Assembly: GCA_964453605.1 (NCBI GenBank)
Contig: CAYVOI010000001.1
Span: 676,095 to 740,094 of the forward strand
Length of the DNA: 64,000 bases
Reading direction: 5' to 3'
Source: an uncultured Gammaproteobacteria bacterium
GTDB taxonomy: Bacteria > Patescibacteriota > Patescibacteriia > Veblenbacterales > UBA10138
The notes below the pieces were generated by a model. The model was not told the DNA's origin, searched no databases, and saw only the letters and a program-made list of their open reading frames with translations. A program made the position numbers and the translations under genes. Of the stretch, positions 19,457-28,701 are shown piece after piece (the stretch's first letter is position 1; each line of letters opens with the position of its first letter).

Positions 19457-20011
19457 TTACTCAGTGGTGCTTAAAACGTTCTTGAGCTCTTGGAGCGCTC
19501 GGTGGAGTATAACGCGCGTAGCGGCTCCGGTCTTACCAATAATAGTTGCTATCTCCTGGGGCCGTAGCCCTTCAACGTAAGCCAGGATCACTACTTCTTG
19601 CCACTCTGGCTTAAGCCTAGTGAGAGCTACTTCTATTTCCTGTAAGCTCACGCGGTGCTCAGGGCTCAAGGCCCTGCCCTGGCTAACATCAGTTACGTGT
19701 AAAGCCTCATCAAGTGGTAAGGTGTTCTGCTGGCTCCGGTAGTGGTCAGCGATCAAGTTCCTGGCCACCTGGTAGAGGTAAGCCCGGAGGTTCCGTATGC
19801 CCCCACCTTCTGGCTTAGTCAGGTACTGCCAGACCTTGAGAAAAAGGTCTGAGGTAAGGTCCTGGGCTACTTCTTGGGTCCTGACGCGGAACGATACAAA
19901 CCGGTACAGCTGGTCCACGTAGCTATCGTACAGAACAGCAAAAGCCTCCTGGTCGCCATGCCGAATTTTTAACAGTAGTACCTCTTCTTCAATCTTGCGT
20001 TTCAAGTACAT
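19457..20011 (-). CDS. RNA polymerase sigma factor, sigma-70/ECF family
   Basis: Region 2 'FAVLYDSYVDQLYRFVSFRVRTQEVAQDLTSDLFLKVW'. Region 4 HTH 'LRPQEIATIIGKTGAATRVILHRALQEL'. Confidence 0.85.
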   Translation of the reverse strand: MYLKRKIEEEVLLLKIRHGDQEAFAVLYDSYVDQLYRFVSFRVRTQEVAQDLTSDLFLKVWQYLTKPEGGGIRNLRAYLYQVARNLIADHYRSQQNTLPLDEALHVTDVSQGRALSPEHRVSLQEIEVALTRLKPEWQEVVILAYVEGLRPQEIATIIGKTGAATRVILHRALQELKNVLSTTE

Positions 20012-20251
20012 ATATGGAGACGTGGTATGTGGAAAATCGTTACACTACGTGAGTGCTACTTTAACTATTTTCCCCTACTTTGGCAAGTATAAAAATAATG
20101 AAATTAAGCCAAAATACTACCCTATAAACTAACCAAATCGGCAAAATGCCATTCTTAATATATTTATACAATGATTTATATAAAAACAGCGGAAATTTTA
20201 AGAATTCATGAGCTTAAATGCAATAAAAATATAATACATGTATACAATAAT

Positions 20252-20279
20252 TTGACAAAAGTATACATTATTCTATACT
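20252..20279 (+). promoter_or_regulatory. near-consensus sigma70-type promoter (TTGACA, 16-nt spacer, TATACT) inside the AT-rich island and upstream of the HTH gene
   Basis: TTGACA at 20252-20257 and TATACT at 20274-20279, ~65 bp upstream of the ATG at 20346. Confidence 0.45.
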
Positions 20280-20345
20280 TTATGTATCTAAATTGAATAA
20301 ATTTATCCAGCAGGGATTAACTACACTAAAACTTTCTAACCACCG

Positions 20346-20618
20346 ATGAACTCCCCTATCAGAATTTCTGTCAGTGAAGCTTCCAGACTCTTTGGCTTAT
20401 CCACAAAAACCATTCGCCAAGCTATTAAGCTGGGCACCATAACCTATGTGGTCGTAAGGGGTAGGTACAAGCTGAACTTTGAGAGTGTGCTCAGCTGGTC
20501 CCAAAGCTCCCCCCGCCGGCAGCACGCTATGGAACGGGGTGGCTTGGGGCAGTATGTGGATACGTGGAAAATCAGGAACCGTAAGTACTCCCCCCGCCCA
20601 CCACAAGAAAACACTTAA
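20346..20618 (+). CDS. small helix-turn-helix DNA-binding protein (HTH_17 / excisionase-MerR-like)
   Basis: 'ISVSEASRLFGLSTKTIRQAIKLGTI' is a classic HTH. 90 aa. Convergent with the DGR RT. Confidence 0.6.
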   Translation: MNSPIRISVSEASRLFGLSTKTIRQAIKLGTITYVVVRGRYKLNFESVLSWSQSSPRRQHAMERGGLGQYVDTWKIRNRKYSPRPPQENT

Positions 20619-20622
20619 CCTG

Positions 20623-21729
20623 CTATAGCAAAAACTGGCGCTTTAAGCTTCGGCTCAAGCGATAAGCACTAGCGTGAGACAGCACGCCGAGGTACGAACT
20701 TAGCAATTGCCCAAAGCTAGTTTTGGTAATGGCTCCTCCACGCCAGGCCACCAGGCGTTGGTGCAGCTTTCGTAGCATGCGTGCCTTGGTTTTTGTGCGT
20801 AGCACGCGGCAGTGCGGCAGCACAACGTAACCTAGAAAATCAATACCCTGGCCGTACTTTCGGAGGATAACCTTCTTTTGGTGGAGTTCAAGCTTAAGGC
20901 CTTCCCTCAAAAACTCAGCGAGCTTTGGTACTAAGCTTTCGAGGTACTCTTTGTTGTCTGCCAGTATCACAAAATCATCGCAGTACCGCACGTAGTGCCT
21001 CACCTTGAGCTTGTGTTTTACAAACTGGTCAAGCTCGTTCAAGTAAATGTTCGAGAATAGCTGGCTGGTCACATTTCCTAAGGGCAATCCCTTGCCTGGA
21101 CTGGTTTCAAAACTTCCCACCACTTGACGAATAAGCCAGGTAGTGCTAAGGTCATATGATTTATACGCGATAAGCTCAAGCAATATCTTATGGTCAACCG
21201 TATCAAAGAATTTCTTGACATCGCACTTCAGAGCATAGCTAGGTTTTTGCCTGTTACGGCTTACCTGCCACAGGAAACGTTCCAAGCGGGCTACCCCGCG
21301 GTGGGTGCCTTTATCAATACGGCAAGAGTAGGAGTCGAAAATAAACTTCCGTTCGTACAACGGGTACAGTACGCGAAACAGGGCTTGGTGCACTACCCTG
21401 TCTCGCACGCTGGCCTTGTGGATATGTCGTAGCTTAGGGTCGGTAATGTAAAACGAAGCGTAAGCGGTGTTGCGGTAGGTTTTGCTGGTAAGCTCCTGGT
21501 GTAATTTAAAAAGGTTGTCCTCAAGGCCGAATTCAAACACCTGCACATCAGGCTTGCTCCGCTTGCCACGCCGAAACTCGCGCCAGGCTAAAAGCAGGTT
21601 AGGCAAACTAACAACCCGCTCAAATAAACCACTATGCCCAACACCATTCCCCAAAGCCCACCCCTCGCCACCGACCATGTTGATGTTCCCTTGGTTCATA
21701 CGATTTACCAATTTTACAAGCTTCTGCAC
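20623..21729 (-). CDS. diversity-generating retroelement (DGR) reverse transcriptase. The start is probably an internal Met near 21678.
   Basis: RT motifs 1-7. 'LPLGNVTSQLFSNIYLNELDQFVK' carries the DGR-specific SQ in motif 4, where group II introns have SP. 'YVRYCDDFVIL' catalytic motif. A cognate TR and VR lie next to it. Confidence 0.9.
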   Translation of the reverse strand: MQKLVKLVNRMNQGNINMVGGEGWALGNGVGHSGLFERVVSLPNLLLAWREFRRGKRSKPDVQVFEFGLEDNLFKLHQELTSKTYRNTAYASFYITDPKLRHIHKASVRDRVVHQALFRVLYPLYERKFIFDSYSCRIDKGTHRGVARLERFLWQVSRNRQKPSYALKCDVKKFFDTVDHKILLELIAYKSYDLSTTWLIRQVVGSFETSPGKGLPLGNVTSQLFSNIYLNELDQFVKHKLKVRHYVRYCDDFVILADNKEYLESLVPKLAEFLREGLKLELHQKKVILRKYGQGIDFLGYVVLPHCRVLRTKTKARMLRKLHQRLVAWRGGAITKTSFGQLLSSYLGVLSHASAYRLSRSLKRQFLL

Positions 21730-22014
21730 GGGTACATCAAGCTCTTCCCCAAAACCGAGAAGTACTCACTGGGCGCGCGTATTGAACATTTTACCCTGGA
21801 TACACTCGAGCTCTGCTTAAAGGCAGCCTATGCGTCTAGGGCAAACCGTTCAGTGCTCCTGGAGGAGCTCGACACGAAGGTGCAGGTGCTGAAAACGCTC
21901 GTCCGGCTGGCGCACGAAATTAGGGCGCTCGATGATGCTAAGTACTTGGGCCTGCAAGAACGGCTACAGGAGATGGGCAAAATGGTTGGCGGGTGGTTAA
22001 GATACAGCAGGTAA
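21634..22014 (+). CDS. avd: Avd-like accessory variability determinant (four-helix-bundle, 23S rRNA IVS protein family). The start may be a non-ATG codon near 21688.
   Basis: 'YQFYKLLHGYIKLFPKTEKYSLGARIEHFTLDTLELCLKA' matches the four-helix-bundle 'FPKxEKYxL' signature. It is followed by a strong terminator. It lies on the opposite strand from the RT, TR and target. Confidence 0.65.
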   Translation: MPNTIPQSPPLATDHVDVPLVHTIYQFYKLLHGYIKLFPKTEKYSLGARIEHFTLDTLELCLKAAYASRANRSVLLEELDTKVQVLKTLVRLAHEIRALDDAKYLGLQERLQEMGKMVGGWLRYSR

Positions 22015-22019
22015 AATAA

Positions 22020-22049
22020 GCACCCCCCGAAATGCCGGGGGGTGCTTTT
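22020..22049 (+). terminator. intrinsic terminator: a 10-bp GC stem (gcaccccccg/cggggggtgc) plus a TTTT run
   Basis: Starts 6 nt after the avd TAA stop. The same hairpin lies immediately 3' of the TR on the minus strand. Confidence 0.75.
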
Positions 22050-22068
22050 AGCATTACCGCGAGAACTT

Positions 22069-22184
22069 CCAGGGGACGAAGCCCGTTGTTGTTCCAGTGA
22101 TTACCCGCGTCGTTGTAGTTGACGTTCGCCAAGCCACCGTTGTCGGAGTTACCGCCGATAAGACGGCTACCACGGCTCTCAAAA
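22069..22184 (-). repeat. DGR template repeat (TR). The sense strand is minus, and it is rich in AAC codons in the target frame.
   Basis: ~116-bp near-identical copy of the 3' end of the target gene. It differs from the VR almost only at TR adenines. Confidence 0.9.
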
Positions 22185-22458
22185 ATTGTTTGCTCCCGCC
22201 CATAGACACCAGGGCTCGATTCGTATGCGAAACTCGCCCTTGTATTTTATGCTGTGGCAGCCCTGAAAGGTTTCGGACATCCACACTAGGAGCAAACAAG
22301 CAGTGCTCTTGGTAATGCCGCGATACGCTCTCCGCACCCGTGAGTTTGGAGACCCTGATCGCAAGTATCCTAAGGATTTCGGCGACAGCGATCCGTAAAC
22401 CACTGTGCATTAGCCTACTCTCAACTCTACCTTAGCTCATTTTTGAAAAATAATAAAG

Positions 22459-22497
22459 GCTTGAGAAAATTGCTTCCCAAGCCTTTTTTTCCAAGTT
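22459..22497. terminator. bidirectional hairpin terminator (aggcttg...caagcct) with T-runs on both sides, ~45 nt downstream of the target-gene stop
   Basis: 7-bp stem. TTTTTT follows on the plus strand and TTATTATTTTT on the minus strand. Confidence 0.5.
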
Positions 22498-22520
22498 CCA
22501 AAAGGAACCATTGTTTTCAA

Positions 22521-22536
22521 TCCGCCAGTTGGCGGA
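22521..22536 (-). other. short GC hairpin (tccgcc-agtt-ggcgga) immediately 3' of the VR/stop. It matches the cruciform/hairpin position seen at DGR targets.
   Basis: 6-bp stem with a 4-nt loop, 5 nt after the TAA at 22541-22543. Confidence 0.5.
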
Positions 22537-22540
22537 CAAG

Positions 22541-23482
22541 TTACAGCACTGCCAGGGGACGAAGCCCGAAGCTGTCCCAGTGAAGACCCGCGTCGTTGTA
22601 GTCGACGCTCGCCACGCCACCGTCGCCGGAGCTACCGCCAATAAGACGGCCACCACGGCTCTCAAAATACTCCTCTCGCCATTCCCAGGTGTTGGTTTTG
22701 CCATCGTCCTTGCGGGGCAAATCCAGGCACAGCTGAGGAATGACGTTGGCCTCGATCTCCTTTTCGAGACGGACTTGTTCAGGCTTGAGCTTGAGAAGTT
22801 TGGCCACGGCCGGCTTAACGTGTTGTTCCCATTCATTGGGTGAAACGCTGAAGCGAGACGAACGCGGACCTTGGGTGTAATCAAGAATGGCACCAGCCGA
22901 ACGCAAACCTGCGATGATGGAGCCGAGGAATTTTCCGTCGTCCTCATACATCTGCCGTCCATTGTCGTATACAGGCTTGCACCTGGTATCAATCAGTACC
23001 GTAATGCCACCAAGCCCATAGGCCGGATTGGAAACCACGAGCTCACCAGAGGTATTGGCCAAGAAAAGTTTGCCCTTGTCGGACACCTCGTAGTACCACT
23101 TCTCGGGCTTCACCTTCCAACCCGGAAAGTTTGCGGCCTGTGCCATGAGCACCGCCGGCAAAAACGCCACGTCGAGGCCAAGCTTTTGCCACTCGGCTAT
23201 CTGCCGACGACCGTAGCGCTTGAGTGTTTGGGCGAAGGCCGTGAGGTCAAACTCGGCACCGAAGAACAGCCAATGGCGTTTGAACTCCCGCAGCAGCAGG
23301 GCCAGCATCCAGTTGGACACTACCACCGTGTTGTGGCCGATGATGGTATCACTCACGCGCTTGGCGAGATCAGGCACTGCGCGCATCTTTTTGAAATGTT
23401 CTCGCTCGACACCATGCTGTGCCAGCACTTCGAACGTCGACGTTATTTCGGAGAGTGGTATCTCCTTGACTAAGTTCCCCAT
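22541..23482 (-). CDS. DGR target (variable) protein. The C-terminal ~39 codons are the variable repeat, VR 22551..22667.
   Basis: C-terminus '...VDYNDAGLHWDSFGLRPLAVL'. The TR-encoded version is 'VNYNDAGNHWNNNGLRPLEVL'. Strong SD (AAGGAG) before the ATG at 23482. No obvious signal peptide. Confidence 0.85.
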   Translation of the reverse strand: MGNLVKEIPLSEITSTFEVLAQHGVEREHFKKMRAVPDLAKRVSDTIIGHNTVVVSNWMLALLLREFKRHWLFFGAEFDLTAFAQTLKRYGRRQIAEWQKLGLDVAFLPAVLMAQAANFPGWKVKPEKWYYEVSDKGKLFLANTSGELVVSNPAYGLGGITVLIDTRCKPVYDNGRQMYEDDGKFLGSIIAGLRSAGAILDYTQGPRSSRFSVSPNEWEQHVKPAVAKLLKLKPEQVRLEKEIEANVIPQLCLDLPRKDDGKTNTWEWREEYFESRGGRLIGGSSGDGGVASVDYNDAGLHWDSFGLRPLAVL

Positions 23483-23865
23483 AATGGGTCACTCCTTTCC
23501 TGTATTTGGGCTCTCCTGTAGAAGGCTCGCCCGGTTGAACATTATCCAGCGTACAAGCTGGGGTTGATTGAAGTTACGACTAGGGTAAGTCTATGGCTGT
23601 AACTTATATTTAGTTTACCCCTGCCAACCTGACCAAAACACCCTGGTTTCAGCCATATTGGCAGGGATAAGGCATTGTTAAAGGACGCTCTATCGTACCC
23701 CTATTTTATAGCTTTGTCAAGCGCTTAAAGCGCGCCCACTCTAAACAACTAGCCATAGCCACATAAAAACCGCCCTAAGCTAGTGGCGGCACATTAAGTG
23801 CACAAGCAAAAGCCTAGTGACTAGGCCTTGCGCACCAGTGGCAAGTCTTGTAACCCCTGGGCTAA

Positions 23866-23905
23866 CTATACACCAAAAACCAAAAACACCCCAAAGAGCG
23901 GGGTG
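23866..23905 (-). terminator. intrinsic terminator on the minus strand (caccccgctctttggggtg plus a U-rich tail)
   Basis: 6-bp GC stem followed by TTTTTGGTTTTTGG on the minus strand. Confidence 0.5.
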
Positions 23906-24368
23906 CCGTAGAAAAGAATAAGAAGTTGGTTTTTTGTTGGAGGGATTGTTGAGAAGGGAATGTGTTGTAGAGGTGTTGTTTGAGGAGTTTTATAATTGAG
24001 AGTTTTGGTTGTTTGTGTGGAGTGTTGGGGTGCAGTTGCCTGCGGTAGGGGTTTTAGTAAGTTTTGTGTAGACGTCCCAGGCTTCAAGCTTTCTTGAAGA
24101 CTAAGGCATCTACACAGCCTACTACCCTATTCCACACAAGTCTCTCGACTCCTCTGGCCTCTATTCCCTTGTTAATCCTTCCGAAACCAACTTCTTATAG
24201 TTAGAATACTCTCAGGCTAAAACTTTGTCAAACCCCTGTAAATACTGAGGACTGTGCTACGTCTAACCCCTGGGGCTTAGAGTTATCCACAGCGTATAAA
24301 AAGAGGTAGCCCCACAACTTGTGAGACTACCTCCATGTTACGACTCTATTGGTTTTATTATGGCTGTG

Positions 24369-26402
24369 TTACCTACCCTCTCGCATGAACCCGAGGAAGA
24401 ACTGCAGGCCGTTGAAGCACTCGAACAGGCACACCTGCAGCCACTTCAGTGGATTCCACAGGTGGCGGTACCACTGGCACCAGACCTGGCTGATGTAGGT
24501 TCGCGATGAAACGCGGGCGAAGGGGTTGTGCTTGTAGAACCACAGCGCGAGCGACGACGGCACCCGCACCTCGGGCACCTCAGCCTTGAAACGAGCGTAG
24601 AGCGCACGCAGCTCGGAAACCTTCACCAGGCGCCAATCGACCACCCCCTTACGGGCACGGGCGACCAGCTCGGTGAGGCGCTCTTCCGCCGCAGGAATAG
24701 GCCGGCTCCTCAGCCACACCTCTTGGAACTGCAGGTAGAGCTTCACGAGCTCCCGCAGGCGGTAGGCAGCGGCGCGCGCCCTCCCCCACCAGAACGGCAG
24801 CCAGGCTTCGCGAGGGAACCCCGGCCTCCGCTCGTCGCGGTAGCGCACGGTCCAGAAACCGCAGTTCATGGGATGCAACCCCTCGATACGTGCAGCGTAC
24901 AGGTACCAGGCGAAAAACCACAGCTGCGCCCAGTAGTGCTTGCGGTTACCGCGCCAGCCCTTGAGCACCTGAACCATGTGGTCGGTAGAGTAGAACCACC
25001 GCCAAATGTCACGGTGTGTCTGTGCAAGGTCTGCAGCCGACATACTTTGGGGCAGTACGGCCACGTGGTTTGAGTCGTAGGTGTTAAAATCAGGATGCAT
25101 CCAACGACCCTCCTTCCACCACGTTTGGTGATCTTCCGACCCTGGCAGCGGGGTAAGAATATAGAACGAAGCTGAGTTGAAGCCGATAGCCTGAAGCTGG
25201 CAAATGTCCTCACGAATGCTGGCACGCGTGTCAAATTCCAAGCCAATGATATATCCGGCGTGGCACGTCATGCCTAAGGCATTGCAGTGTTTGACCAGCG
25301 ACTCATACTCCTTCACTTGGTTCTGGTACTTACCCTGCGCCTTCAGGTTCTGCTGGTTCATGGTCTCCAGGCCGAAGAATACCTGGTTGCAGCCGGCGCG
25401 GGCTGCCAACTGGAAGAAATCACTGTTCTTCCCCTTCCTGGCCGCCAGGTCAGCCTGCATCATGAACGTAAAGGGAATGCCCTCGGCCTCGCGGAGAGCG
25501 GCCAGGCCAGCGAACAGTTCGCGCCAGCGCGGGTTGCGGGCCAGGTTGTCGTCGGTGAAAAAACAGTGGCGAACGCCGACGGCGTGGTAGTTGCGGCGGA
25601 CAAACTCTACCACCTGGTGCGGGTCGCGGCAGCGCATGGTGTTCCCCTGCACGTTTATGATGGTGCAGAACTTGCAGGCGAACACGCAGCCGCGGCCGGT
25701 ATCAAGGGTACTGAACGGTGAAGCGAACCCCTTGAGATCAGACTTGGTAAGCCTGGGGATGGGCAAATTGGTGAGGTCGGGCGTCTCTTTCAGGAAATCG
25801 TAGAGCGGCTGAGCTTGTCCACGTACGACATCGGCGATAATGTTCGGTAACCGGTCGCCTTCCACCTCTCCAGCCACGAGCGTAATACCGCGATCCATAG
25901 CTGCCTTGAGGTCGTCCGTTAGGCCGATCATCGCCAGCATACCGCTGACGTGAAACCCCCCAATGAGCACGGCAATGCCGTGGGGCAGGAACTGGGCCGC
26001 AATATCATTAGCCCGTGGGTACTGGTTGGTTTGCACGCCCACGAACATGACAATCGCTTTCACGCCACGGCGGCGCGACTGCCTGATGATATCCCGCACC
26101 GGCACACGCTGAATTGCCTCGTCGATGAGGCGCACGTTGAGCTGTAGGCCTTGAAAAAACGGGTACCGGGTGAGATTACGCGTGAGGCAACCCATTTGGG
26201 TAAGGGTGTTACTGCGGATGACCCCGATACGTGTACGAATGGGGTAGCCGTCATCGGTGTAGTTGGTGCAGCGCACCAGCGTAATATCGAGCGTGTCGAC
26301 GCCGTACCTGTGCGCGGTCGTATTTGTCTGCAGCACGTGGTTCATAACTCCTCCTTTCATCAGAGGTTTAACGGTTGATATTGTATTGTCAATTATTTGC
26401 AA
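24369..26402 (-). CDS. B12-binding domain-containing radical SAM protein (class B). The start is probably an internal Met.
   Basis: 'GRGCVFACKFCTI' CxxxCxxC radical-SAM cluster motif after an N-terminal Rossmann-like B12-binding region ('GVKAIVMFVGVQTNQY...LIGGFHVS'). Long C-terminal extension. Confidence 0.8.
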   Translation of the reverse strand: MQIIDNTISTVKPLMKGGVMNHVLQTNTTAHRYGVDTLDITLVRCTNYTDDGYPIRTRIGVIRSNTLTQMGCLTRNLTRYPFFQGLQLNVRLIDEAIQRVPVRDIIRQSRRRGVKAIVMFVGVQTNQYPRANDIAAQFLPHGIAVLIGGFHVSGMLAMIGLTDDLKAAMDRGITLVAGEVEGDRLPNIIADVVRGQAQPLYDFLKETPDLTNLPIPRLTKSDLKGFASPFSTLDTGRGCVFACKFCTIINVQGNTMRCRDPHQVVEFVRRNYHAVGVRHCFFTDDNLARNPRWRELFAGLAALREAEGIPFTFMMQADLAARKGKNSDFFQLAARAGCNQVFFGLETMNQQNLKAQGKYQNQVKEYESLVKHCNALGMTCHAGYIIGLEFDTRASIREDICQLQAIGFNSASFYILTPLPGSEDHQTWWKEGRWMHPDFNTYDSNHVAVLPQSMSAADLAQTHRDIWRWFYSTDHMVQVLKGWRGNRKHYWAQLWFFAWYLYAARIEGLHPMNCGFWTVRYRDERRPGFPREAWLPFWWGRARAAAYRLRELVKLYLQFQEVWLRSRPIPAAEERLTELVARARKGVVDWRLVKVSELRALYARFKAEVPEVRVPSSLALWFYKHNPFARVSSRTYISQVWCQWYRHLWNPLKWLQVCLFECFNGLQFFLGFMREGR

Positions 26403-26468
26403 TGTTAGTAAGATCTTTTAAGCTTATTCTTTATTATTTTTACCGCACCGTCAAGAGGCTAAGCAAAA

Positions 26469-26500
26469 ATCGGCGAGTGCCTAGGCACTCGCCGATTTCC
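26469..26500 (-). terminator. intrinsic terminator downstream of gyrB: a 15-bp perfect stem (aaatcggcgagtgcc/ggcactcgccgattt) followed by TTTTT on the minus strand
   Basis: Perfect palindrome with a flanking A-run on the plus strand, equivalent to a U-run on the minus strand. Confidence 0.7.
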
Positions 26501-26580
26501 CGGCATAACCCCCAAACTAAATATCCAAATTCTTTACCCTCCTTCGTCCGCCAGCTGGCGGACTACGGCGGGCAGGCGTT

Positions 26581-28701
<2,121 letters not shown>

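What the first reader, a model, noticed from the sequence alone, without database searches (positions are those of the whole stretch)
20623..23482. Complete diversity-generating retroelement (RT, Avd-like gene, TR, and a VR-bearing target gene)
Four co-located elements establish a DGR.
- An RT carries the DGR-specific motif-4 'GNVTSQ', where group II introns have SP, and a YCDD catalytic box.
- A four-helix-bundle Avd-like ORF carries 'FPKTEKYSL'.
- A ~116-bp template repeat (22069-22184) is rich in AAC codons.
- A target ORF (22541-23482) has a 3' terminal ~117 bp variable repeat (22551-22667) homologous to the TR.

Such a system can rewrite the C-terminal ligand-binding surface of the target protein through adenine-specific mutagenic retrohoming. 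This particular cassette and its target are probably undescribed.
Basis: partly seen in the sequence, partly recalled or inferred. Interest (0 to 1): 0.9.

Follow-up and report, generated by a model that had tools for sequence, protein, structure and literature searches.

The report
CPR-type diversity-generating retroelement with structured leader
This is a genuine, complete diversity-generating retroelement of the kind already known to be common in ultra-small Patescibacteria (CPR), and the stretch between its target gene and its template encodes a conserved folded RNA that seems to take over the priming and stop roles of the RNA that follows the template in the model phage system.

Summary

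- **Repeats.** A 123-nt template repeat (TR, 22062-22184) and variable repeat (VR, 22545-22667) differ at 16 positions on the minus strand. Thirteen of these are TR adenines (Fisher p = 1e-7).
- **Reverse transcriptase (RT).** Its best solved relative is the Bordetella phage DGR enzyme bRT (E = 6e-46, against 1.6e-19 for group II intron RTs).
- **Avd.** It passes the NCBIfam Avd cut-off but lies on the opposite strand.
- **Target.** The 313-aa protein has no family match. It models confidently as an FGE-type C-lectin fold.
- **Activity in relatives.** In two sister loci, public variants differ almost only at codons whose TR codon contains adenine.

The host is a Patescibacteria bacterium. The layout target-TR-(avd)-RT is the published "B3" architecture, which is typical of CPR DGRs, so the cassette is a new member of a known kind.

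One thing goes beyond the finding. The 356-nt "spacer" between VR and TR is a conserved structured RNA.
- It has strong covariation.
- It was found in 7 of 7 RT-homolog loci with other targets.
- Relatives give sub-threshold matches to the Rfam RT-16 motif.
- Its helices bracket the TR the way the BPP-1 primer and stop duplexes do, but from upstream.

I infer a circularly permuted DGR RNA. This is not shown experimentally.

The parts
22541..23482 (-). Target (variable protein) gene, 313 aa. It has a variable about 55-aa N-terminal helical region followed by one FGE-type C-lectin-fold domain whose last about 37 residues are the VR.
22545..22667 (-). Variable repeat (VR), the 3' end of the target gene. 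The positions that differ from TR adenines span 22569-22651.
22552..22567 (-). Invariant GC-rich segment GGGCTTCGTCCCCTGG at the 3' edge of the VR, identical in TR (22069-22084). It is an IMH-like homing segment. The next base (22551 C against TR 22068 A) is a fixed TR/VR difference.
   Evidence: Sequence. In the sister locus the corresponding GAA/GCA codon never varies among 15 variants. The same A-in-TR, C-in-VR difference occurs in L094, L096 and L098.
22522..22535 (-). Small GC hairpin CCGCC-AACT-GGCGG 6 nt after the stop codon, followed by loosely periodic TTG(G) repeats (22478-22539).
   Evidence: Sequence. TTG periodicity across loci.
22455..22486 (-). Intrinsic-terminator-like hairpin plus T run ending the target transcript.
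   Evidence: The same element type aligns in 24 related loci.
22429..22439 (-). Promoter-like element TGAGCTAAGGT. Relatives carry TTTGaTAAAAT, an extended -10, about 6-8 nt upstream of the conserved RNA start.
   Evidence: Alignments. Inferred, not mapped. The consensus scan did not call it.
22185..22423 (-). Conserved non-coding leader of the TR transcript (239 nt): a 5' domain, segment X and a three-way junction (P1, P2, P3).
   Evidence: No consistent ORF. Conserved in 24 distinct loci. RNAalifold finds 26 of 30 pairs with compensatory changes. Pair counts and controls.
22182..22317 (-). Core of the leader as matched by covariance model R1 (X plus P1, P2, P3 with the conserved joiners AUAAAAUACA and GGUG..GGxxG). 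It resembles Rfam RT-16.
   Evidence: The only R1 hit in the window: 115.5 bits, E = 3e-23. Relatives give full-length sub-threshold RF03019 RT-16 hits of 32-39 bits against a gathering score of 50. The window copy gives none at E <= 10.
22299..22319 (-). Segment X (GGCAUUACCAAGAGCACUGCU), complementary to the tail just 3' of the TR. Proposed counterpart of the BPP-1 Sp primer strand.
   Evidence: RNAduplex gives -17.8 kcal/mol, ranked first against all 24 tails. Cognate pairs average -12.6 kcal/mol against -8.0 when permuted, with 0 of 10000 permutations as low. The pairing holds in 6 loci with other targets.
22288..22298 (-). P1 5' strand (UGUUUGCUCCU).
   Evidence: helix 4 is 99.6% paired, with compensatory changes at 9 of 11 pairs.
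22187..22197 (-). P1 3' strand (GGGAGCAAACA). It ends 2 nt before the first TR base. Proposed counterpart of the BPP-1 'cPRT Stop' duplex strand.
   Evidence: TR/VR homology starts within a few bases of the model end in all extra loci.
22062..22184 (-). Template repeat (TR). It has 28 adenines, 8 AAC and 1 AAT codons in the target frame, and no reachable stop codon. It allows about 1e16 protein variants.
22051..22070 (-). TR tail GGAAGUUCUCGCGGUAAUGC, which pairs with X. It overlaps the last 9 nt of TR/VR homology.
22018..22047 (-). GC-rich hairpin flanked by an A run and a T run, between the TR and the avd stop codon. It looks like a bidirectional terminator for the TR RNA and the avd mRNA. 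It could also be the 'Avd-binding stem-loop' predicted downstream of TR by Handa et al.
   Evidence: An equivalent hairpin with covarying stems is present in most related loci. The Handa et al. preprint section was read.
21634..22014 (+). avd accessory gene (126 aa), on the strand opposite to all other parts.
   Evidence: NCBIfam NF033474 DivGenRetAVD 80.4 bits against a cut-off of 80. Pfam bAvd E = 1.9e-17. phrog_3206. The same inverted position is seen in many related loci.
20623..21729 (-). DGR reverse transcriptase (open frame 368 aa; likely start ATG 21699, giving 358 aa). Its 5' end overlaps the avd 5' end divergently. A promoter-like site lies at 21740-21711.

Best explanation
**What it is.** This is a chromosomal diversity-generating retroelement of the CPR type: architecture B3, target-TR-(avd)-RT, in a Patescibacteria genome. 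Its parts are intact and it is probably active.

**Shown by sequence and comparison.**
- A DGR-clade RT, an Avd, a TR/VR pair with adenine-specific differences, and a C-lectin-fold target whose C-terminal about 37 residues are the VR.
- Sister cassettes whose public variants differ only at A-containing TR codons.

**Inferred mechanism.**
1. The target gene ends at its own terminator.
2. A separate promoter then drives a non-coding RNA of about 400 nt, made of a leader (239 nt), the TR (123 nt), a short tail and a terminator hairpin.
3. In this RNA, leader segment X pairs with the tail just 3' of the TR.
4. The adjacent helix P1 pairs a leader strand with the bases just 5' of the TR. The TR is therefore looped out from one continuous helical stack.
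5. This has the same geometry and the same 5'-to-3' order as the template:primer duplex and the 'cPRT Stop' duplex of the Bordetella phage DGR RNA. The difference is that the Sp-like part lies upstream of the TR instead of downstream. That makes it a circular permutation, which fits the fact that avd occupies the TR-RT interval on the other strand.
6. RT-Avd would start cDNA synthesis at the 3' edge of the TR, near 22071, and misincorporate opposite adenines.
7. Synthesis would stop at P1.
8. The cDNA would replace the VR, guided by the invariant GC-rich 3' segment.
9. This recodes up to 18 codons (about 1e16 proteins) of the ligand-binding face of a protein that appears to be cytoplasmic.
For: **Identity as a DGR.**
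- RT: best PDB match bRT, E = 6.4e-46; motif LGNVTSQ.
- Avd: NCBIfam, Pfam and PHROG matches.
- TR/VR: 13 of 16 mismatches at adenines, p = 1e-7; adenines at codon positions 1 and 2; no stop codon reachable.

**Host and type.**
- GyrB is 81% identical to that of Ca. Veblenbacteria, with further Patescibacteria hits.
- The same cassette order occurs in more than 25 related loci.
- B3 architecture is described in PMC5758913.

**Activity in the lineage.** Two sister loci (targets about 52% and 44% identical to this one) show variation only at A codons of the VR.

**RNA.**
- Covariation: P1 99.6% paired with 9 of 11 compensatory pairs, P2 97.4%, P3 86.7%. The slid control gives about 48% paired, and 0 of 500 shuffles reach the observed values.
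- Model R1 hits only this site in the window. It hits 7 of 7 RT-homolog loci, 6 of which were shown to carry non-homologous targets. It hits 0 of 29 target-family loci searched that lack an intact TR/leader unit.
- X and the tail co-evolve: 0 of 10000 permutations reach the cognate energy. The pairing holds in loci with unrelated TRs.
- TR/VR homology begins within a few nt of P1.
- The BPP-1 RNA architecture comes from the Handa et al. preprint 10.1101/2023.10.23.563531.
Against: **No direct evidence of activity at this locus.**
- The only other copy in the databases (L001) is identical.
- Three TR/VR differences are not at adenines. They are C>T (synonymous), T>G (Leu>Val) and T>G at the boundary. 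This could mean drift since the last homing event.

**The RNA model is purely computational.**
- The promoter, the transcript ends and the priming site are not mapped.
- The -10-like element in the window is weak (TAAGGT) and the consensus scan did not call it.
- The terminator may be leaky.
- Handa et al. report Sp-like elements downstream of the TR for CPR DGRs as well. The hairpin at 22018-22047 may be that element.
- The window's leader does not reach, or even register against, the Rfam RT-16 model.

**Other.** Cytoplasmic location rests only on the absence of an evident signal peptide or transmembrane segment when the sequence is read by eye.
Confidence: 0.85

Rival explanations
1. The cassette is a recently inactivated DGR fossil. 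All parts are recognisable, but mutagenic homing no longer occurs and the VR is now drifting.
For: Three non-adenine TR/VR differences. No VR variants of this exact protein in a 15-billion-protein collection. Decayed relatives exist: L006 keeps only an avd fragment and the C-terminal half of the RT next to the target, and several loci have the RT match split across frames.
Against: The RT and avd frames are open and full length, with all catalytic motifs. The leader gets the highest score of any copy against its model (115.5 bits). The X:tail duplex is the most stable of all 24. There are 13 adenine differences and no stop codon in the VR. Two of the three non-A changes are silent or at the boundary.
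Confidence: 0.2
2. The conserved leader is a regulatory RNA or a separate small RNA, for example a ligand-sensing junction that controls TR transcription. On this view it is not the structural scaffold that primes and stops reverse transcription. The Sp-like functions would lie downstream of the TR, in the hairpin and the antisense-avd region, as in the canonical model.
For: A three-way junction with invariant joiners resembles riboswitch aptamers. Handa et al. predict Avd-binding stem-loops just downstream of the TR in most Avd-containing DGRs, including CPR examples. A hairpin is present there.
Against: The downstream hairpin has no conserved sequence. It is flanked by A and T runs like a bidirectional terminator, and it is missing in some loci (L002, L053, L040). 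Beyond it lies avd coding sequence on the other strand. X:tail co-evolution and the exact abutment of P1 on the TR 5' edge tie the leader physically to both TR ends.
Confidence: 0.3
3. The RT belongs to a group II intron, retron or defence-RT system, and the repeat is an ordinary partial gene duplication.
For: The top NCBIfam hit by name is group II intron RT/maturase, because NCBIfam has no DGR-RT model. Many PADLOC DRT models also match the RT domain.
Against: Every such hit is far below its cut-off (147 against 300 bits, 82 against 200, 58 against 235). bRT is the best solved relative by 26 orders of magnitude. Rfam detects no intron or retron RNA. Mismatches are adenine-specific and adenines are placed by codon position. 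A dedicated Avd is adjacent.
Confidence: 0.02

Closest known systems
CPR (Patescibacteria) DGRs: architecture B3 of Wu et al. 2018 (PMC5758913), DGR clade 2 of Roux et al. 2021 (PMC8144416)
   Same: Order and orientation target-TR-(avd)-RT. Cellular rather than viral. A target without recognisable domains or membrane anchor. Host lineage. The RT has more than 7500 relatives at E < 1e-30, and those that carry a name are labelled Patescibacteria.
   Different: Nothing categorical. This particular target family (about 310 aa, C-terminal RLxGGxSxxGGLAxV...HW...RPLAVL) has no annotation in the libraries I searched. The papers I could read do not describe the VR-TR spacer as a structured RNA.
Bordetella phage BPP-1 DGR (mtd-avd-TR-brt), including the bRT-Avd-RNA structure (PDB 8ub7; Handa et al. 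preprint 10.1101/2023.10.23.563531)
   Same: RT family (E = 6e-46, motifs aligned). Avd. Adenine mutagenesis signature. C-lectin-fold target with a C-terminal VR. A GC-rich invariant 3' segment. An RNA in which one strand pairs first with the TR 3' end and then, immediately after, with the bases 5' of the TR, followed by a stem-loop and conserved adenosines.
   Different: [quoted passage not shown] The Sp-like RNA is upstream of the TR with its own promoter (a circular permutation, inferred). Only a terminator hairpin follows the TR. The target is not a phage tail fibre and has no trimeric Mtd-type N-terminal domains. After the VR there is a small hairpin plus TTG repeats instead of the BPP-1 cruciform.
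Rfam RF03019 RT-16 motif (Weinberg et al. 2017, PMC5737381)
   Same: Relatives of the window's leader align over the whole RT-16 model at exactly the core position. They share CUAC, the long-range helix, AUAAAAUACAG, the following hairpin and GGUG. RT-16 was found next to RT genes.
   Different: All hits are below the gathering score (32-39 bits against 50), and the window copy is not detected at E <= 10. The 2017 paper assigns no role to RT-16; only RT-10 was linked to a DGR.
Treponema denticola TvpA and other FGE-type C-lectin DGR variable proteins (PDB 2y3c; TaqVP 5vf4; Mtd 1yu0)
   Different: 12-18% sequence identity and no Pfam FGE-sulfatase or DUF1566 hit. No lipoprotein or signal sequence is evident. 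Some relatives carry N-terminal AAA_5 ATPase domains instead.

Membership tests
Diversity-generating retroelement | RT of the DGR clade, with motif 4 [LIV]GxxxSQ instead of the group II SP and a YxDD box | tested here: met
   LPLGNVTSQLF and RYCDDF in the translation. Best solved relative bRT, E = 6.4e-46, against 1.6e-19 for group II. phrog_1423 E = 1e-111. No explicit RT phylogeny was built.
Diversity-generating retroelement | TR/VR repeat pair whose differences fall on TR adenines | tested here: met
   13 of 16 mismatches at the 28 adenines and 3 at the 95 other bases, p = 1.1e-7.
Diversity-generating retroelement | VR inside a protein-coding target (usually the 3' end), with TR adenines at codon positions 1 and 2 (AAY codons) | tested here: met
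   The VR is the last 41 codons of ORF 22541-23482. Adenines at positions 1/2/3 = 12/15/1. Eight AAC codons. No stop codon reachable.
Diversity-generating retroelement | Accessory variability determinant (Avd) | tested here: met
   NF033474 80.4 bits against a cut-off of 80. PF22296 64.2 bits against 40.
Diversity-generating retroelement | IMH/IMH* elements: a GC-rich invariant 3' segment with TR-specific differences, and a structure downstream of the VR | tested here: inconclusive
   A 16-nt invariant GC-rich segment is followed by a fixed A(TR)/C(VR) difference. A 5-bp hairpin lies 6 nt after the stop codon. Function is not testable here.
Diversity-generating retroelement | Ongoing mutagenic retrohoming (population heterogeneity confined to the VR) | not testable with these tools
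   No reads. The exact protein has cluster size 1. It was met in sister loci: 17 of 20 A codons variable against 0 of 21 non-A codons, and 1 of 270 positions outside the VR.
CPR-type DGR, architecture B3 (Wu et al. 2018) | Core order TR-(avd)-RT with avd on the reverse strand | tested here: met
   Coordinates. The definition and its 90% share of CPR DGRs come from PMC5758913. Host placement.
C-lectin-fold DGR variable proteins | C-type lectin / FGE-like fold with the VR in the C-terminal part of the domain | tested here: met
Rfam RF03019 RT-16 RNA | Score at or above the family gathering threshold (50 bits) | tested here: not met
   No RT-16 match for the window at E <= 10. Relatives reach 32-39 bits over the full model. 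It is related in architecture but is not a member by Rfam's criterion.
Group II intron RT/maturase | TIGR04416 at or above 300 bits, plus intron RNA domains | tested here: not met
   147.4 bits. No group II RNA family in the Rfam scans.
Retron | Retron RT model at or above its cut-off, plus an msr/msd RNA | tested here: not met
   NF038233 58.3 bits against 235. No retron RNA in Rfam.

The most novel reading that the evidence does not exclude
The B3 class covers about 90% of known CPR DGRs. In this class the RNA elements that position the primer, stop the reverse transcriptase and probably bind RT-Avd would not lie downstream of the template as in the Bordetella phage paradigm. They would form a separately transcribed 5' leader, about 170-250 nt long and related to RT-16, which clamps both ends of the TR. 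That makes it a circular permutation of the canonical DGR RNA. It would give the orphan Rfam RT-16 motif a function. [quoted passage not shown] It would also define a compact unit of target, leader, TR and terminator that, in some genomes, stands alone without a nearby RT or avd.
Probability: 0.5. Interest if true: 0.7.

Novelty: new member of a known kind. Interest (0 to 1): 0.5.

Why it matters
**As a DGR, this is one more example of a class already known to abound in CPR bacteria.** Its value is as a clean, complete and apparently intact reference cassette. It sits on a long contig: the databases hold the same gene on an 876-kb contig. Its target family has no annotation, yet it models confidently as a C-lectin fold.

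**It bears on an open question.** Roux et al. asked whether CPR DGR targets are genuinely not membrane-bound. This protein has no evident signal peptide or membrane segment. Some of its relatives are fused to AAA_5 ATPases, which points to intracellular recognition.

**The wider point is the RNA.** If the leader is a permuted equivalent of the phage Sp RNA, two things follow:
- The mechanistic model derived from one phage can be carried over to the largest natural reservoir of DGRs only after re-mapping where the RNA elements sit.
- A compact, self-contained template RNA with its own promoter and terminator would be useful for engineering DGR-based mutagenesis.

Tried and rejected
1. **A small gene in the VR-TR spacer.** No open frame is shared among 24 loci. 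Rejected.
2. **Rfam on the window.** Nothing relevant at E <= 5 over 20000-24400, or at E <= 10 over 21990-22560. The RT-16 link appeared only through relatives.
3. **Pairing of the leader's 5' end (GAGAG) with the tail.** Only 4-5 bp, and inconsistent between loci by inspection. Dropped in favour of X:tail.
4. **A pseudoknot (GGAU with AUCC) and a 3-bp helix in the 5' domain.** These are 75% and 83% paired, with little covariation. Left open and not claimed.
5. **Column-wise covariation count for X:tail.** The MAFFT register shifts between loci, so I used cognate against non-cognate duplex energies instead.
6. **Phage association.** A pattern scan of IMG/VR gave 119 stretches, about the number expected by chance by my own rough estimate. 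None of the 80 fetched matched model R1. The target has no PHROG or PADLOC hit.
7. **A second VR in the window.** None found.
8. **Literature.** The Wu 2018 and Weinberg 2017 supplements are not held. Paul et al. 2017 is not held. A 2026 preprint found in a search is not held. I therefore could not check whether this VR class equals one of the 'UVR' classes, or what taxa seed RT-16.
9. **Species look-up.** The species-representative genome scan did not return the window's own genome. The host was placed by GyrB instead.

Full report
**1. Checking the observation**

The ORF list contains the following:
- A 368-aa frame on the minus strand (20623-21729) with LPLGNVTSQLF and RYCDDF.
- A 126-aa frame on the plus strand (21634-22014) with FPKTEKYSL.
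- A 313-aa frame on the minus strand (22541-23482).

The repeat finder reports one strong direct repeat, 22062-22184 against 22545-22667, 123 nt at 87% identity. On the minus strand the alignment shows 16 differences. Thirteen are at TR adenines and three are elsewhere: C>T, T>G and T>G. With 28 adenines among 123 bases, this gives Fisher p = 1.1e-7.

In the target reading frame the TR adenines lie at codon positions 1/2/3 = 12/15/1. There are eight AAC codons and one AAT codon. No A-to-N change can make a stop codon. Eighteen codons can vary, giving about 1e16 proteins. An adenine-tolerant scan of the whole window finds no other VR.

**2. The proteins**

*RT.*
- It matches Pfam RVT_1.
- Against all PDB sequences its best relative is the Bordetella phage DGR enzyme bRT (8ub7), at E = 6.4e-46 over residues 29-324. 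Group II intron RTs follow at 1.6e-19 and retron-type RTs at 1.5e-18.
- NCBIfam has no DGR-RT model. Its group II, Drt and retron models all score far below their cut-offs.
- PHROGs gives the phage RT family phrog_1423 at E = 1e-111.
- Homologs number more than 7500 at E < 1e-30. Those that carry a name are labelled Patescibacteria.
- Their N-termini suggest a start at ATG 21699. On that reading the RT and avd are divergent genes whose 5' ends overlap by about 66 bp.

*Avd.* It reaches the NCBIfam DivGenRetAVD cut-off (80.4 against 80 bits), Pfam bAvd and phrog_3206 'Avd protein of DGR'.

*Target.*
- It has no hit in Pfam, NCBIfam, PADLOC or PHROGs.
- It has 108 word-indexed homologs of about 310 aa and 514 clusters at 50% identity in the exhaustive profile search.
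- The family alignment shows a variable N-terminal 55 residues, a conserved core, and a C-terminus RLxGGxSxxGGLAxV.....GxHW..R..RPLAVL with hypervariable positions.
- An AlphaFold2 model built on 108 sequences is confident: pLDDT 89.7, pTM 0.87.
- Some relatives of 800-1150 aa carry the domain at the C-terminus behind an AAA_5 ATPase. This recalls the Midasin/AAA link that Wu et al. noted for one CPR VR class.
- I see no N-terminal hydrophobic segment. That is by inspection only.

**3. Host and context**

GyrB in the window is 93% identical to its best (unnamed) match, 81% identical to a Ca. Veblenbacteria protein, and otherwise matches Patescibacteria. The same target protein lies on an 876-kb NCBI contig and on a Logan contig, L001, with identical gene order. 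G+C drops to 47-52% over the cassette against 56-57% in the flanks.

**4. Related loci**

Scans with the target-family profile fetched 22 genomic and 70 metagenomic loci.
- In more than 25 of them the target is followed by a TR 250-357 nt downstream, then avd on the reverse strand, then the RT. Mismatches fall overwhelmingly at adenines.
- This is the B3 architecture TR-(avd)-RT of Wu et al. [quoted passage not shown]
- Roux et al. 2021 describe a CPR-restricted DGR clade whose targets lack recognisable domains (PMC8144416).
- The cassette is therefore a new member of a known kind.

**5. Evidence of real diversification**

The window's own protein has no variants on record. Two homolog clusters have many members:
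- In the P0012 cluster (48 members), 15 sampled members are identical over 270 residues and differ only in the last about 35.
- Mapping onto the TR of the matching locus L025, 17 of 20 A-containing codons vary, 0 of 21 codons without adenine vary, and 1 of 270 positions outside the VR varies (p = 7.5e-9).
- For the P0098 cluster against L075 the counts are 15 of 16 against 2 of 20 (p = 4.9e-7).

The last A-containing codon (TR GAA, VR GCA) never varies. The same A/C difference recurs in other loci. The window's 22068/22551 difference is therefore best read as a fixed TR/VR (IMH*-type) difference outside the mutagenised zone.

Poribacteria orthologs have a fixed C-terminus, scattered ordinary variation, and no TR, avd or RT nearby.

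**6. The spacer is a structured RNA**

The 356 nt between the stop codon and the TR contain no ORF shared among loci, yet they align across 24 distinct loci. In order, the elements are:
1. A hairpin and periodic TTG repeats.
2. A terminator-like hairpin with a T run (window 22486-22455).
3. An extended -10-like TTTGaTAAAAT.
4. A conserved RNA beginning GAGAGUAGGCUAAUG.

RNAalifold predicts a three-way junction in which 26 of 30 pairs have compensatory changes. The pair counts are as follows:

| Element or control | Cells paired | Covariation |
|---|---|---|
| P1 (11 bp) | 99.6% | 9 pairs compensatory |
| P2 | 97.4% | - |
| P3 | 86.7% | - |
| Whole structure | 89.3% | score 0.65 |
| Partners slid by 1-3 columns | about 48% | score 0.14-0.22 |

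None of 500 shuffles reached the observed values.

The P1 3' strand (22197-22187) ends two bases before the TR.

A covariance model of the core (R1) gives the following results:
- It hits the window once, at 22182-22317 on the minus strand (115.5 bits).
- It hits 7 of 7 loci fetched through RT homologs. The targets of six of these were compared with the window's target and are not homologous to it.
- It hits none of the 29 target-family loci searched that lack an intact TR/leader unit.
- It hits none of 80 IMG/VR stretches picked by a sequence pattern.

The RNA therefore goes with the TR and RT, not with the target.

**7. The leader clamps both ends of the TR**

Duplex prediction between the leader and the TR 3' end repeatedly pairs the segment just 5' of P1 (X) with the tail just 3' of the TR/VR homology. 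In most loci X reads AUUUAGAGCACUGC. In the window it reads GCAUUACCAAGAGCACUGC.
- Cognate X:tail duplexes average -12.6 kcal/mol, against -8.0 for permuted partners. None of 10000 permutations is as low.
- The window's duplex (-17.8 kcal/mol; GCAUUACC with GGUAAUGC, GAG with CUC, ACU with AGU) ranks first among all combinations.
- The pairing recurs in six loci with unrelated TRs, for example AGACACU with AGUGUCU, and UGAAGGGGAUACU with AGUCUCCCUUCA.

Downstream of the tail, most loci have a hairpin flanked by A and T runs and then the avd stop codon on the other strand.

**8. Comparison with the BPP-1 RNA**

In the phage RNP, Sp 47-56 pairs with TR 118-129 to form the template:primer duplex. 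Two nucleotides later, Sp 59-70 pairs with the avd segment just upstream of the TR to form the 'cPRT Stop' duplex. A short stem-loop, unpaired adenosines and a single-stranded 'thumb ring' follow (Handa et al. preprint).

Here the order is X (pairs with the TR tail), then P1 5' (pairs just upstream of the TR), then the P2 stem-loop, then the invariant AUAAAAUACA, then P3. The logic is the same, but the whole Sp-like block precedes the TR and is joined to it through the P1 3' strand. I read this as a circular permutation of the DGR RNA. It fits the inverted avd, which occupies the TR-RT interval.

This is an inference from covariation and analogy. Nothing here shows priming or stopping. Handa et al. 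state that CPR DGRs also have Sp-like elements downstream of the TR. The downstream hairpin may be what they scored.

**9. Is the RNA known?**

Relatives of the window's leader give full-length but sub-threshold matches to Rfam RF03019 'RT-16' at exactly the core position. The scores are L045 39.0, L053 37.8, L018 33.6, L027 33.4 and L007 32.1 bits, against a gathering score of 50. The consensus shares CUAC, the long helix, AUAAAAUACAG, the hairpin and GGUG.

Weinberg et al. 2017 listed RT-1 to RT-19 as RT-associated motifs. They tied only RT-10 to a DGR and speculated that others might also belong to DGRs. The window copy does not register against RT-16 at E <= 10.

The motif is therefore partly known as an orphan. 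Its place as the TR leader of CPR DGRs, and its pairing with the TR tail, were not described in any paper I could search. Key papers and supplements were not available to me.

**10. Verdict**

It is ordinary in kind: a CPR B3 DGR. I place it as a new member of a known kind with moderate interest. The interest comes mainly from the leader RNA and from the unannotated, apparently cytoplasmic C-lectin-fold target family.

Noticed in passing
window 22478-22539 (minus strand); the first 70 nt after the target stop codon in L002-L100: Just after the VR and stop codon, DGR-linked loci carry 3-6 TTG (often CTTGG or CTTGA) repeats with a sharp 7-9-nt spacing (67 of 96 intervals). They average 4.2 TTG per 70 nt, against 2.2 in shuffles and 3.0 in family loci without a DGR. 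The repeats also occur in cassettes with unrelated targets. This may be a target-site recognition element. In the window the pattern is looser.
   Followed up: partly
L014/L085, L021/L083, L032, L066, L069, L072: These loci have target, leader, TR and terminator units with adenine-biased TR/VR mismatches, but no avd or RT in the downstream sequence held (about 0.5-6.5 kb, depending on the contig). Where there is enough sequence, housekeeping genes follow instead (NusA-like, GroEL-like, Pol I exonuclease-like by N-terminal sequence). The RT is either supplied in trans or lost. Their leaders carry an extra hairpin and GAAAAAAUGC in place of AUAAAAUACA.
   Followed up: partly
L009, L010, L012, L013, L015 (Ca. 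Poribacteria); protein clusters P0097 and P0092: Orthologs of the target in 3-6-Mb Poribacteria genomes have a fixed C-terminus (QFYYGGFAFVFWPDALRSYGCFRP). Their variation is ordinary and scattered, and there is no TR, avd or RT nearby. This is a non-diversified form of the same protein family outside CPR.
   Followed up: partly
proteins P0205, P0210, P0233, P0239, P0240, P0251, P0261: Relatives of 800-1150 aa carry the target domain at the C-terminus behind an AAA_5 (dynein/MoxR-type) ATPase domain. This hints at an intracellular sensing role for the family.
   Followed up: partly
L006 5950-6630; L011, L061, L063, L064, L077, L079: These are decayed or odd cassettes. In L006 the target is followed directly by an avd C-terminal fragment and only RT residues 165-367, with no TR. 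In several other loci the RT match is split into two pieces in different frames near residue 210. That could be a frameshift, a pseudogene or an assembly error.
   Followed up: no
window 20012-20618: A 90-aa helix-turn-helix ORF lies convergent with the RT (20346-20618, plus strand). It scores 30.3 bits against TIGR01764 'excisionase family', cut-off 28.8. It follows an AT-rich gap that holds a 22-nt direct repeat (20156-20177 and 20232-20253) and promoter-like sites on both strands. It is absent from related cassettes. Together with the G+C dip this may mark a horizontally acquired island.
   Followed up: partly
window 23483-24368: About 890 nt upstream of the target hold no convincing ORF. 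They contain two near-perfect hairpins (23615-23670 and 24065-24116) and give only chance-level Rfam hits.
   Followed up: no
L094 3247-3314: The 5' domain of the leader in one RT-homolog locus gives a weak hit to another orphan Rfam motif, RT-7 (33.5 bits against a gathering score of 116.8; E = 3e-4). Different RT-n motifs may be pieces of DGR leaders.
   Followed up: no
window 1-64000: ARAGORN finds no tRNA or tmRNA gene in 64 kb. All of the non-overlapping ORFs of 150 aa or more lie on the minus strand; the plus-strand ORFs in the list are nested inside longer minus-strand ones.
   Followed up: no
L100 74-3234 and window 22541-28677: In L100 the DGR target lies directly next to gyrB. In the window gyrB is two genes away, with a radical-SAM gene between. 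This could be synteny or a preferred insertion neighbourhood.
   Followed up: no
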